From positions 1 to 57,970 of the forward strand of contig JAUVXW010000030.1 in NCBI GenBank assembly GCA_030603385.1: a stretch of DNA of 57,970 nucleotides, read 5' to 3'. The stretch's first letter is position 1. Every line of letters begins with the position of its first letter. The notes under the pieces are model-generated. The model was not told the DNA's origin. It was given only the letters and a program-made list of their open reading frames with translations, and made no database searches. Shown here piece by piece: positions 17,083-42,512 of this stretch. A program made the position numbers and the translations under genes. This DNA is from Promethearchaeota archaeon. Its GTDB lineage: Archaea > Asgardarchaeota > Lokiarchaeia > Sigyniarchaeales > SOKP01.

Positions 17083-18093
17083 TTGGATTTAATGACGAGT
17101 ACTGTTATTGAACAAATTAACAATTTGCTGAAAAAGGCTAATTATGAAACCTTCTTGTTAGGAAGTTTTGCAACTACAAAGAGTAAGTTTTGTTTTGATT
17201 TAATAGTAAAGAAAGATGACCAAATTTTTAGTGTAAAGGTATTTCCCAATATTGACAATTTGAATCCAGACTTAATCAGTGATATTAAATCTTTATCTTT
17301 AATCTTAAAGTCTAAACCATTGTTAATAGGAATTAAGAATAGGTACCAGAAATTAGAAGATAACACAATATATGTAAGAAACGGGTTACCATTTATAACA
17401 TTAAAAACACTTGAGAAAATCCTTACATATAATATATACCCCTATATTTTAGCAAGGAGAGGTGGGGGAGTAGTGTTTTTAGACGGAAATTTAATGAAAG
17501 AAATAAGAGAACAGCACTCAATAACGAGAAAAGAATTATCAGAAAAGTTAGGCATAACTAAACGGACTGTTAGTTCATATGAAAATGAGAGTATGCGTCC
17601 TTCAGAAGAAATGGCTCAGAAAATTTTAAATATTTTAGAGGATAGTGAAATATTCAAAAAGATTAACATTTTCAAATGGAATATTAAGTATGATATGGAA
17701 GATAAGGAAATATTTGAAGGAATAGAATTGAGTGAATTTGAATCTCATGTTGAAAATATAATAAAAGATATTGGGCTTTCTTCTTATTGGTATAAAAAAG
17801 GATCTATTCCTTTCAAATTATCATTATTTTCTTCAATTGATAAAATTGAAAGCAGGGGCTTTTACCCTCTTTTTTCCGCCCTCTCCGAGGAACAAGGTAA
17901 AGTCAATGAGATAAATTATAATTGTTTGAAGATGTTTAATGACTTATTTCATAAAACTGCGCTTTATATCATCGATAATAACGTAAAAATTCCAGGAACC
18001 ATAAAAGGAAAAGATATTCATATTGTAAAAATAAAGAATTTAGAAGAAGTTGATGATGAGGAAGAATTCATTGAACTCATCCAAGACTCTTGA
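17083..18093 (+). CDS. Conserved archaeal HTH transcriptional regulator (COG1395-like)
   Basis: CFDL..., NIDNL, ARRGG, central HTH ITKRTVSSYENE. Confidence 0.8.
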   Translation: MDLMTSTVIEQINNLLKKANYETFLLGSFATTKSKFCFDLIVKKDDQIFSVKVFPNIDNLNPDLISDIKSLSLILKSKPLLIGIKNRYQKLEDNTIYVRNGLPFITLKTLEKILTYNIYPYILARRGGGVVFLDGNLMKEIREQHSITRKELSEKLGITKRTVSSYENESMRPSEEMAQKILNILEDSEIFKKINIFKWNIKYDMEDKEIFEGIELSEFESHVENIIKDIGLSSYWYKKGSIPFKLSLFSSIDKIESRGFYPLFSALSEEQGKVNEINYNCLKMFNDLFHKTALYIIDNNVKIPGTIKGKDIHIVKIKNLEEVDDEEEFIELIQDS

Positions 18094-18796
18094 GGAGAAA
18101 TCAGAATTGATTTGTGGTATAGACGAGGCTGGTAGAATATAATTCATTTCGAATTCTGTACCAAAAGGTCCCGTTCTTGGTCCTCTTGTTTTGTGTGGTG
18201 TTTGTTTTAAAAAAGATCAACTATCATATTTAGTTGAAATAGGTGTAAAAGATTCTAAGAAATTAAGTGCTAAAAGAAGGAGTACACTAGCAAAACTAAT
18301 TAAGGATAAGTGTCATTCTTTTAAAATTCTTATAGTTCCTCCAGCAGAAATTGATCAAAGGGAAGAAAAAAGAATTACATTGAATAAATTAGAAGAATTA
18401 AAAATGGCTGAAATTATTAGAGAATTAAAACCTAGCTCAATATATATTGACGCCGTCGATGTAAATGAAGATAGATTTAGAGATTCAATACTAAATCTTT
18501 TAGATTATAGTCCAGAAGAAATCATTTCAAAACACAAGGCTGATGATCTATTTCCCATAGTATCAGCGGCCTCAATCATTGCCAAGGATAAAAGAGACAC
18601 CTTAATTGAGGAAATGAAGGAAAAATATGGAGATTTTGGTTCGGGATATCCTTCGGATAAAAGAACTATTGATTTCCTTCGAAAATGGATAAAGAAGAAT
18701 AAAAAGATACCACATTTCGCTAGAAAATCATGGGCTACAACAAAAAAAATATTAGAAGAAGAACTATCTAACAGAAAAATAACTGATTTTTTCTGA
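18071..18796 (+). CDS. rnhB: Ribonuclease HII, interrupted by a 30-nt BHB intron (join 18071..18135, 18166..18796)
   Basis: LICGIDEAGR | GPVLGPLVLCGV is split by a 30-nt insert with in-frame TAA. GVKDSKKL, KADD..VSAASIIAK, GSGYPSD motifs. Start is TTG 18071 or 18107. Confidence 0.92.
18136..18165 (+). other. Putative BHB intron in rnhB mRNA (30 nt)
   Basis: Central helix TGGT/ACCA, 3-nt bulges AGA and AAA, internal stem ATATAATTC/GAATTCTGT. Confidence 0.85.
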
Positions 18797-36066: not shown

Positions 36067-36168
36067 CGCAGATGGAGGGACTCGAACCCCCGAGCGCTCA
36101 TGCGCACCAGCTCACTTGAATGTAAGAAATACTCAAGGCTGGCGTCTTACCAGCTAGGCTACATCTGC
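36067..36168 (-). tRNA. tRNA-Ser(TGA) with 19-nt intron at 37/38 (36113..36131)
   Basis: Acceptor GCAGATG/CATCTGC, anticodon stem CCAGC/GCTGG, long variable arm. Intron helix CTTG/CAAG with bulges AG|T and TG|A. Confidence 0.88.
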
Positions 36169-41725: not shown

Positions 41726-42512
41726 ATGTTTCAGCAAGCAGGACGCGGGTATGATATGGCTATTACGCAATTCTCACCCGAGGGACGGCTTTTTCAAGTT
41801 GAGTATGCTATTGAAGCCGTTCGAAGAGGAACAACCGCAATAGTGTGTCGGAATAAAAGCTCTGTTGTGTTTGCGGTTGAGAAAAAGAGCTCTGAGCTTC
41901 AAGAACAAAGCATGGGTTCGGAAAAAATATTTAAAATTGACGACCACATTGGCGTAGCTATTGCAGGATTGACCGCGGACGCTAGAGTACTAATCTTAAG
42001 TCCCACAGGCGACTGAGAGTACTAATCGATCGCGCCCGCGTTCAAGCTCAAGTTAATTTATTGAATTATGATGAGAAAATCTCTGTGAAGGACAGCACGA
42101 TAAATATTTGCGAGTATAAGCAAGTATTCACTCAAAACTAGGCGGAGCTTATCCGTTAGTGAGCCATGCCGGTGTGCGACCTTTTGGAGTTTCTTTTCTG
42201 ATTGCTGGAATTGATGCAAATGGACCCTCCTTATATCTCACTGATCCGAGTGGAGCTTTTTGGAATTATTTCGCCTTCGCTATCGGATCGGGTTCGACTG
42301 AAGCAAGGGCTTACCTTGAAGAACATTATAATAAAGATATGAGTGATGAGGAATTAAAATTATTACCCTTAAGAGCTCTCAAGGAATTGATGGATGATAA
42401 TTTAGATAAAAATACATGTGATGTAGCTTTTATATTGAAAGAGGATAAAACGTTTAAACTTCTAAGTTTAGATGAAGTGGAAGAATTACTAAGTAAATTA
42501 TCAGATTCCTAA
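41726..42512 (+). CDS. psmA: Proteasome subunit alpha with two BHB introns (join 41726..41992, 42025..42136, 42166..42512; 241 aa)
   Basis: [20 protein letters not shown]; spliced [10 protein letters not shown]|IDRARVQAQ...KQVFTQ|[10 protein letters not shown]; TDPSG, AIGSG. Located upstream of sdo1-rrp4. Confidence 0.93.
41984..42027 (+). repeat. 12-bp direct repeat AGAGTACTAATC (41984..41995 and 42016..42027)
   Basis: Exact repeat spanning both splice junctions of psmA intron 1. Confidence 0.95.
41993..42024 (+). other. Putative BHB intron 1 in psmA mRNA (32 nt)
   Basis: Central helix GTAC/GTAC, bulges TAA and TAA, inner stem TCTT(A)AGTC/GACTGAGA. Confidence 0.87.
42137..42165 (+). other. 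Putative BHB intron 2 in psmA mRNA (29 nt)
   Basis: Central helix CTCA/TGAG, bulges AAA and CCA, inner stem CTAG(G)CGGA/TCCGTTAG. Confidence 0.87.

What the first reader, a model, noticed from the sequence alone, without database searches (positions are those of the whole stretch)
18136..18165. 30-nt BHB intron splits the catalytic DEAGR-GP motif of RNase HII
GAC GAG GCT GGT AG|[AATATAATTCATTTCGAATTCTGTACCAAA]|A GGT CCC. The insert carries an in-frame TAA (18140..18142). Helix TGGT(18130-33)/ACCA(18160-63), bulges AGA (18134-36) and AAA (18164-66), a 9-position inner stem with one mismatch, and exon-exon pairing GACGAGGC/G(G)TCCCGTT. Removal gives DEAGRGPVLGPLV. The downstream ORF alone lacks the first catalytic D and E, so splicing is needed for an active enzyme.
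Basis: partly seen in the sequence, partly recalled or inferred. Interest (0 to 1): 0.88.

Follow-up and report, generated by a model that had tools for sequence, protein, structure and literature searches.

The report
Spliced tRNA-type mini-intron in rnhB
The only RNase HII gene of this uncultured Asgard (Lokiarchaeia-type) archaeon is broken inside its catalytic motif by a 30-base tRNA-style intron, and a metatranscriptome contig lacks exactly those 30 bases, so this protein-coding mRNA is evidently cut and rejoined, which the papers I could search report for only one other archaeal coding sequence (cbf5).

Summary
A 30-nt insert (18136-18165, equally 18137-18166) with an in-frame TAA separates ...ICGIDEAGR from GPVLGPLV... 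in the genome's single rnhB.

Comparative and RNA evidence supports the bulge-helix-bulge (BHB) intron reading:
- The insert sits at the same codon in 80 of 154 genomes of the order. All 80 are in one family, in 8 of its 13 sampled genera.
- Insert sequences are often unrelated, and lengths are 28, 29, 30 or 31 nt.
- Sister families, and some lineages nested among carriers, read DEAGRGP without a break.
- The proposed helices pair in 94% of cells, against 46% or less when slid. Both end pairs of the 4-bp central helix show compensatory changes.
- Exon 2 is under purifying selection (pN/pS about 0.13).
- A 753-nt contig from an RNA library, 98% identical to the window, spans 17908-18690 with exactly 30 nt missing at 18136. 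A DNA run keeps them.
- The genome encodes two EndA paralogues, RtcB and Archease.

Caveats: the single-sequence fold is not significant, the 3' bulge region has one extra G, and no matched DNA exists for the RNA sample.

Known kind (cbf5 pre-mRNA intron), new gene and phylum. This scan noted similar introns in other Asgard genomes; none of the follow-up summaries I saw mentions RNA evidence.

The parts
18107..18135 (+). rnhB exon 1: probable TTG start, then ICGIDEAG plus the first two bases (AG) of the Arg codon. An ATG at 18053/18056 in the same frame, overlapping the upstream gene, is an alternative start.
   Evidence: The codon 5 before Asp is TTG, GTG or ATG in the closest relatives. Solved RNase HII has Asp at position 7. 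The start codon is inferred, not shown.
18122..18129 (+). 5' strand of the outer (exon-exon) helix h, GACGAGGC, covering codons Asp-Glu-Ala.
   Evidence: Pairs with 18168-18175 at 7 of 8 positions. RNAalifold predicts this helix on its own. It is paired in 98% of cells. All 36 intron-bearing sequences have GAG GC here, while intronless relatives often have GAA.
18130..18133 (+). 5' strand of the central 4-bp helix H (UGGU).
   Evidence: Pairs with 18160-18163. Pair 12-39 occurs as UA/UG/CG/GC and pair 9-42 as UA/AU/CG.
18134..18136 (+). 5' three-base bulge AGA. The inferred cut is AG|A, or one base later, because the A run makes the site ambiguous.
   Evidence: A13 and G14 are invariant and A15 nearly so across the sequences.
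18136..18165 (+). The 30-nt intron (equally 18137-18166). Its in-frame TAA is at 18140-18142.
   Evidence: Absent from an RNA-library contig and present in a DNA run. Absent from sister families and some nested lineages. Every one of 36 distinct inserts carries at least one in-frame stop.
18137..18159 (+). Inner hairpin h': stem 18137-45 with 18151-59, loop 18146-50.
   Evidence: Paired in 90% of cells, with three pairs showing double changes. Unrelated stems occupy the same place in other genera.
18160..18163 (+). 3' strand of the central helix H (ACCA).
18164..18166 (+). 3' three-base bulge AAA, inferred cut AA|A. G18167 is an extra unpaired base, or it pairs with C18129.
18166..18796 (+). 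rnhB exon 2: the last base of the Arg codon, then GPVLGPLV... through the stop.
   Evidence: Pfam RNase_HII positions 9-199, E 4e-44. Solved RNase HII chains (best 2dfh, then 1io2) align from residue 12. pN/pS is 0.12-0.15 against five relatives.

Best explanation
This is an archaeal bulge-helix-bulge (BHB) intron inside a protein-coding sequence. The rnhB pre-mRNA folds so that exon 1 (codons Asp-Glu-Ala) pairs with the start of exon 2 (Gly-Pro-Val). The last four bases of exon 1's Gly codon region (UGGU) pair with the intron's 3' end (ACCA). Two 3-base bulges lie on opposite strands of that 4-bp helix, and the rest of the intron forms a hairpin.

The splicing endonuclease EndA, here probably an alpha-beta heterotetramer, cuts in both bulges. 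RtcB, with Archease, joins the exons. That creates the Arg codon AG|A and the intact DEAGRGP active-site motif.

Unspliced RNA would stop three codons into the insert, and the product would lack almost the whole enzyme.

Shown here: the structure, by covariation; position-specific conservation with precise losses; and an RNA-library contig lacking the 30 nt.
Inferred: the enzymes that act, the exact cut sites, the fate of the intron, and any regulatory role. I see no evidence for a regulatory role, and a neutral intron that merely has to be removed is the default.
For: Structure:
- 93.8% of cells pair, against 46% or less when slid, and 4 pairs show compensatory change.
- The 35-sequence table gives UA/UG/CG/GC and UA/AU/CG at the ends of the central helix.
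- RNAalifold finds the exon-exon and inner helices on its own.

Distribution:
- 80 of 154 genomes of the order carry the insert, all in family f1. The reversed-pattern control gives 0.
- Intron sequences in several other genera of the family are unrelated, with the same architecture.
- Lengths of 28, 29 and 31 nt occur in G151, G049, G024 and G152.
- DEAGRGP is contiguous in families f2 and f3 and in lineages nested among carriers. The tree needs about 4 changes, against 17 when labels are shuffled.

Gene is functional and single:
- pN/pS is 0.12-0.15.
- There is one RNase_HII match in the genome.

RNA:
- Metatranscriptome run X16 has a 753-nt contig, depth 242, over 17908-18690 with 30 nt left out at 18136. 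DNA run X1 keeps them.
- That contig shares 5 variants with G019, whose DNA has the intron.

Machinery:
- Two EndA paralogues of 198 and 200 aa, both with N and C domains.
- RtcB and an adjacent Archease.
- A canonical BHB intron in tRNA-Ser(UGA) in the same window.
- Asgard EndA is reported as the (alpha-beta)2 type with the L1 loop that allows relaxed motifs (PMC5829648).
Against: - The single-sequence fold is no better than shuffles, and the unconstrained MFE of a 71-nt piece is a different fold.
- The motif is not strictly canonical. There is one extra G next to the 3' bulge, several relatives have a G-G, G-A or three G-U pairs in the central helix, and the outer helix keeps an A-C mismatch.
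- The RNA evidence is one assembled contig from a strain 98% identical, without matched DNA. An RNA library can hold DNA, and contigs cannot give the spliced fraction.
- No enzyme assay links EndA or RtcB to this substrate.
Confidence: 0.9

Rival explanations
1. The RNA contig comes from a strain whose DNA lacks the insert. In G000 the gene is then a split gene or a pseudogene that is never repaired at RNA level.
For: The contig differs from the window at 15 of 753 positions, and no matched DNA was laid. Intronless alleles do exist in the family.
Against: The contig's variants place it with G000 and G019, both intron-bearing. The next relatives, down to 78% protein identity, also carry the insert. 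80 genomes keep both exons open with pN/pS about 0.13. It is the only rnhB in the genome. The helices covary, which a dead insert would not require.
Confidence: 0.03
2. The insert stays in the mRNA and is handled by the ribosome, either by stop-codon readthrough giving ten extra residues, or by translational bypass as in phage T4 gene 60.
For: 30 is a multiple of 3. A hairpin follows a stop soon after a Gly codon, and GGT occurs on both sides.
Against: Inserts of 28, 29 and 31 nt shift the frame. Many inserts have two stops, and TAA, TAG and TGA are all used. Take-off at GGT and landing at GGT would delete the conserved Arg-Gly, and in many relatives the two Gly codons differ. The RNA contig lacks the 30 nt.
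Confidence: 0.02
3. The insert is removed from the RNA, but by machinery other than EndA and RtcB: another endonuclease or ligase, or self-cleavage.
For: No enzymology was done here. The motif has one extra base, and weak central helices occur in some species.
Against: The topology, the 4-bp spacing, the 3-base bulges and the cut positions needed for the correct codon are those of EndA substrates. Thirty bases are too few for a group I or II ribozyme, and Rfam finds nothing there. EndA, RtcB and Archease are all present.
Confidence: 0.05

Closest known systems
BHB intron in the cbf5 (pseudouridine synthase) pre-mRNA of Crenarchaeota (Watanabe 2002; Yoshinari 2006; Yokobori 2009, PMC2738675)
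   Same: A short intron inside a coding sequence, defined by a (often relaxed) bulge-helix-bulge at the exon-intron borders. It is linked to a hetero-oligomeric splicing endonuclease with broad specificity, and it is patchily gained and lost among related lineages.
   Different: The host gene is rnhB, not cbf5. The phylum is Asgard/Promethearchaeota, Lokiarchaeia-type, not Crenarchaeota. The site is inside the catalytic DEAGRGP motif, only about 9 codons from the probable start. The length is tightly held at 28-31 nt. PMC7714728 (2020) states that cbf5 was the only such mRNA intron reported besides its own 5'-UTR case.
Archaeal tRNA BHB introns, for example the 19-nt intron of tRNA-Ser(UGA) at window 36067-36168 (-)
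   Same: The same motif grammar. In that tRNA the central helix is CUUG/CAAG, the bulges are AGU and UGA, and the cuts fall after the second bulge base (read by eye). The same enzymes are expected to act.
   Different: The substrate here is an mRNA with no tRNA body. The outer helix is made of two pieces of coding sequence, so codon choice (GAG GCN ... GGN YCN GUN) is constrained by RNA pairing.
BHB intron in the 5' UTR of Haloferax volcanii HVO_1309 (PMC7714728)
   Same: EndA acts on an mRNA, shown there in vivo and in vitro.
   Different: That intron lies in the untranslated leader and does not interrupt the reading frame. The one here must be removed to make the protein.
Unconventional HAC1/XBP1 mRNA splicing by IRE1 and RtcB in eukaryotes (reviewed in PMC13149111)
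   Same: It works alike: a protein endonuclease recognises RNA structure and excises a very short intron from an mRNA. From my own knowledge, the XBP1 intron is 26 nt and the exons are joined by RtcB in metazoans. No spliceosome is involved.
   Different: The nuclease (IRE1) is unrelated and recognises twin stem-loops, not a BHB. That splicing is regulated by stress and changes the frame on purpose. No regulation is shown here.

Membership tests
Archaeal BHB (splicing-endonuclease) intron | [quoted passage not shown] | tested here: met
   UGGU/ACCA with bulges AGA and AAA. The helix is paired in 94% of cells with covariation at both end pairs. Caveat: one extra G (18167 or 18168) lies beside the 3' bulge, so the form is slightly relaxed.
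Archaeal BHB (splicing-endonuclease) intron | Flanking helices: an outer exon-exon helix (h) and an inner intron helix (h') | tested here: met
   The outer helix has 7 of 8 pairs and is 98% paired. The inner helix has 9 positions and is 90% paired. Both were predicted independently by RNAalifold.
Archaeal BHB (splicing-endonuclease) intron | Cuts at the symmetric bulge positions give a functional joined product | tested here: met
   AG|A ... AA|A gives the codon AGA (Arg) and DEAGRGP, identical to intronless relatives and matching the N-terminus expected from solved RNase HII chains. The rule holds for inserts of 28-31 nt.
Archaeal BHB (splicing-endonuclease) intron | The intron is absent from mature RNA but present in DNA | tested here: met
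   RNA-library contig X16 lacks exactly 30 nt at 18136, and DNA run X1 and all close genomes keep it. This is contig-level evidence without matched DNA.
Archaeal BHB (splicing-endonuclease) intron | The host encodes EndA and an RNA ligase of the RtcB type | tested here: met
   Two EndA paralogues (99 and 71 bits), RtcB (558 bits) and Archease (144 bits).
Archaeal BHB (splicing-endonuclease) intron | Cleavage by EndA leaving 2',3'-cyclic phosphate and 5'-OH ends, and a circular intron | not testable with these tools
   This needs enzyme assays or circular-RNA sequencing.
RNase HII (Pfam PF01351) | Full-length match including the N-terminal Asp-Glu of the DEDD active site | tested here: met
   Exon 2 alone covers profile positions 9-199. 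Read through the stop, the match covers 1-199 at 157 bits. Exon 1 supplies IDEAG. That Asp7 and Glu8 are catalytic is from established knowledge of Thermococcus RNase HII (PDB 1IO2).
Group I / group II self-splicing intron | A ribozyme core of hundreds of nucleotides | tested here: not met
   The insert is 30 nt, and Rfam has no match in the region.
Programmed translational bypass (T4 gene 60 type) | Matching take-off and landing codons, with a product that lacks the gap only | tested here: not met
   A GGT to GGT hop would delete the conserved Arg-Gly. The Gly codons differ in many relatives. Frame-shifting insert lengths occur. The RNA lacks the insert.

The most novel reading that the evidence does not exclude
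The rnhB intron is one member of a large set of EndA-spliced micro-introns of about 30 nt in housekeeping mRNAs of this family of Lokiarchaeia-type Asgard archaea. In this genome the candidates include psmA (twice), uvrB and rpoA1, and, by other readers' unchecked notes, histone, hdrB, elf1 and uL11. If so, routine splicing of protein-coding transcripts, with family-level intron gain and precise loss, exists in the closest prokaryotic relatives of eukaryotes. It would be independent of spliceosomal or group II machinery.
Probability: 0.65. Interest if true: 0.9.

Novelty: new member of a known kind. Interest (0 to 1): 0.8.

Why it matters
In the papers I could search, introns in archaeal coding sequences rest on one gene (cbf5) in one phylum. 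Here a second, unrelated housekeeping gene in Asgard archaea needs tRNA-type splicing to make its active site. The case has covariation support, a dated distribution (one family, several precise losses) and an RNA contig showing the joined form.

It shows that gene callers will truncate or miss such genes in Asgard genomes. It also shows that exon codon choice is shaped by the pairing needed for splicing. It gives a concrete 54-nt substrate for testing how far the EndA/RtcB pathway acts on mRNAs in the lineage nearest to eukaryotes.

Tried and rejected
- Single-sequence folding. The z-scores are not significant, and the unconstrained MFE differs or shifts the central helix by one pair. It was not used as support.
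- Genome-wide census by a BHB descriptor plus ORF-merging and codon-usage filters. It gave 16,100 structural candidates and about 340 that pass the coding test. There was no excess over decoys in which the excised length was changed by 1-2 nt. The filter cannot separate a few true introns from chance in a 31% GC genome. This says nothing about how many introns exist.
- BLAST of the intron against the genome. Only short chance words matched, so the intron is single-copy and not a repeat family.
- RNA runs X17 and X20 did not cover the site, and parts of the stretch had no cover in X16. No conclusion was drawn from either.
- ARAGORN missed the intron-containing tRNA that Rfam found.
- Six literature searches found no paper on BHB introns in Asgard protein-coding genes. 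The library lacks most subscription journals, so this is not proof of absence.
- Readthrough, bypass, intein and group I/II readings were rejected, as listed in the membership tests.

Full report
WHAT IS THERE

The window comes from a 3.9-Mb, 31% GC archaeal genome. Its relatives are deposited as Promethearchaeota/Promethearchaeia (Asgard, Lokiarchaeia-type) MAGs from marine sediments and cold seeps.

Downstream of an HTH-domain gene, and next to fibrillarin and Nop5 on the opposite strand, lies rnhB. The frame reads ...ICGIDEAGR-I-stop. Ten codons later, in the same frame, it resumes as GPVLGPLVLCG... for 209 residues.

The downstream part matches Pfam RNase_HII only from profile position 9. 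It aligns to solved RNase HII chains (best match 2dfh, then 1io2) from residue 12. Read through the TAA, the profile is matched over positions 1-199, and this is the only RNase HII match in the genome.

IS IT MORE THAN CHANCE?

Not by folding this sequence alone. The z-scores are -1.8 and -1.2, and a 71-nt piece prefers another fold.

The comparative evidence is strong:
- In all 23 same-genus genomes with a match that were searched first, the open frame stops 2-10 codons upstream of GPV or GSV. Other families of the order have a continuous gene.
- Reading the loci showed a 30-nt insert at the identical codon position in every genus member, with one member at 29 nt.
- A pattern search over 154 genomes of the order found the interrupted form in 80. 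All 80 are in family f1, in 8 of its 13 sampled genera: g1 48/53 (G000 excluded), g15 5/6, g16 4/4, g22 13/42, g23 4/7, g21 3/10, g13 1/1 and g17 1/2.
- None was found in 19 genomes of families f2-f4, and the reversed-pattern control gave none.
- Insert lengths are 28, 29, 30 and 31 nt.
- In several other genera of the family (for example G057, G060, G148, G150) the insert shares no sequence with the one here but has the same layout.

STRUCTURE

The layout is that of an archaeal hBHBh' motif:
- On the 5' strand: outer helix (18122-29), central helix (18130-33), 3-base bulge (18134-36), inner helix.
- On the 3' strand: inner helix, central helix (18160-63), 3-base bulge (18164-66), outer helix (18167/8-75).

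On 22 distinct genus sequences, 93.8% of cells form standard pairs. That compares with 29-46% when the 3' partners are slid by 1-3 columns. Four pairs change on both sides, and 0 of 500 shuffles reach the observed covariation score.

On 35 distinct sequences from more genera, the two end pairs of the central helix occur as UA/UG/CG/GC and UA/AU/CG. RNAalifold, given no structure, predicts the exon-exon helix and the inner hairpin.

The best register pairs C18129 with G18168. That leaves G18167 as a fourth unpaired base. Both G positions are invariant Gly-codon bases, so covariation cannot decide. Some relatives have weak central helices with G-U pairs or one mismatch. The motif is therefore slightly relaxed.

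Published work assigns Asgard archaea the (alpha-beta)2 endonuclease with the L1 loop that tolerates relaxed motifs (PMC5829648).

A side effect is visible in the exons. All 36 intron-bearing sequences have GAG GC in exon 1, while intronless relatives often use GAA. These sequences are related, so the comparison is not independent.

THE GENE IS ALIVE AND NEEDS EXACT EXCISION

- Exon 2 has pN/pS of 0.12-0.15 against five relatives.
- Every one of 36 distinct inserts has at least one in-frame stop, and TAA, TAG and TGA are all used.
- Four genomes have inserts whose length is not a multiple of three. This excludes readthrough.
- A gene-60-type hop from GGT to GGT would delete the conserved Arg-Gly.
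- On a maximum-likelihood tree of the conceptually spliced proteins, the 38 intron-bearing and 21 intronless rows need about 4 changes, against 17 when labels are shuffled. Intronless lineages (L039-41, L045) sit among carriers and read DEAGRGP exactly.
- That pattern fits one old gain in the family and a few precise losses. The precise losses give the product predicted by the cut sites.

RNA

Fifteen DNA runs from at least nine studies hold most of the stretch. I laid two metatranscriptome runs, one doubtful run and one DNA run:
- The DNA contig (X1) covers the whole 2.2 kb and keeps the insert.
- Run X16, on record as RNA-Seq, has a 753-nt contig at depth 242 that lies on 17908-18690 with 15 other letters and one gap: 30 letters left out at 18136.
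- Five of its variants are those of G019, a 99%-identical genome whose DNA has the intron. The next relatives also have it.

The limits are these. It is one assembled contig. An RNA library can contain DNA. Contigs cannot give the spliced fraction or the exact cut within the A run.

MACHINERY

The genome has two EndA paralogues of 198 and 200 aa, each with the N-terminal and catalytic domains. That fits a two-subunit enzyme. By eye, one of them has a His at the expected place (...LEHS...) and the other does not. That is my reading, not a test.

It also has RtcB and, next to it, Archease.

The same window holds a tRNA-Ser(UGA) gene with a 19-nt canonical BHB intron. The pathway is therefore in use.

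MECHANISM

The pre-mRNA folds into the BHB. EndA cuts after the second base of each bulge. RtcB joins the exons, forming the AGA Arg codon. The mRNA then encodes a normal RNase HII of about 219 aa from the probable TTG at 18107, or longer if the ATG at 18053 is used.

The fold, the conservation and the missing 30 nt in RNA are shown. The enzymes, the end chemistry, circularisation of the intron and any regulatory use are inferred. I estimate 0.9 for this reading.

The rivals are an intronless DNA allele behind the RNA contig, ribosomal recoding, and other machinery. Together they get about 0.1.

COMPARISON WITH WHAT IS KNOWN

The closest known case is the cbf5 pre-mRNA intron of Crenarchaeota (PMC2738675). 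PMC7714728 (2020) calls cbf5 the only mRNA BHB intron reported besides its own 5'-UTR example in Haloferax. My six searches found nothing on Asgard protein genes. A 2026 preprint on Asgard tRNA introns does not treat mRNAs.

This is therefore a new member of a known kind: new gene, new phylum, placed in a catalytic motif, and with RNA support.

Earlier notes of this scan report similar inserts in other Asgard genomes and in other genes of this genome. None of the follow-up summaries returned to me mentions RNA evidence, and one states that it had none. I used them only as leads.

In this genome I checked three of them:
- psmA is in three pieces, matching Proteasome profile positions 1-61 and 98-189 with a 33-aa middle piece.
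- uvrB has a 30-nt stop-containing hairpin that interrupts a conserved motif.
- rpoA1 has the same kind of insert.

My own genome-wide census failed to rise above background. The number of such introns in this genome therefore remains open.

Noticed in passing
window 41726-42512 (+): The proteasome alpha gene psmA is in three pieces. Exon 1 matches Pfam Proteasome positions 1-61 and exon 3 matches 98-189, with a 33-aa piece between them. The gaps are 32 nt (41996-42027) and 29 nt (42135-42163). By eye both fit a BHB: GUAC/GUAC with bulges UAA/UAA, and CACU/AGUG with bulges CAA/AGC. Both restore ...ARVLI|DRARV... and ...FTH|HAGVRPFG.
   Followed up: partly
window 41984-41995 and 42016-42027: A 12-nt direct repeat (AGAGTACTAATC) flanks the first psmA insert, so its borders can slide by 12 nt. 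The repeat contains the palindromic central helix and the bulge. It could be a trace of how the intron arose (a duplication at insertion), or only the two-fold symmetry of the motif.
   Followed up: no
window 36067-36168 (-): A tRNA-Ser(UGA) gene with a 19-nt intron after position 37 and a canonical BHB (CUUG/CAAG, bulges AGU and UGA). Rfam found it (43.9 bits) and ARAGORN missed it.
   Followed up: partly
G000 C4, near 251894 (+) and 219999 (+): uvrB and rpoA1 each carry a 30-nt stop-containing hairpin insert in a conserved motif: YYDYYQPE|AYMP, and DEDG|..PIP. These were leads from other readers' notes. I checked only that the sequences are as described.
   Followed up: partly
window 18053-18121: The rnhB frame is open back to ATG 18053 and overlaps the last 41 nt of the upstream HTH gene (17083-18093). 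Homology favours the TTG at 18107, which has a GGAG 10-13 nt upstream. In more distant genus members that codon is TTA, CTA or ATA, so they may start at the upstream ATG. If TTG is the start, exon 1 is only 29 nt.
   Followed up: partly
window 18122-18129 and the same site in relatives: All 36 intron-bearing rnhB sequences use GAG GC for Glu-Ala, which the outer helix needs. Intronless relatives often use GAA. Coding sequence appears to be constrained by the splicing structure. The sequences are related, so the comparison is not independent.
   Followed up: partly
G000 C39:18568-20315: RtcB (+) and Archease (-) are adjacent and convergent.
   Followed up: no
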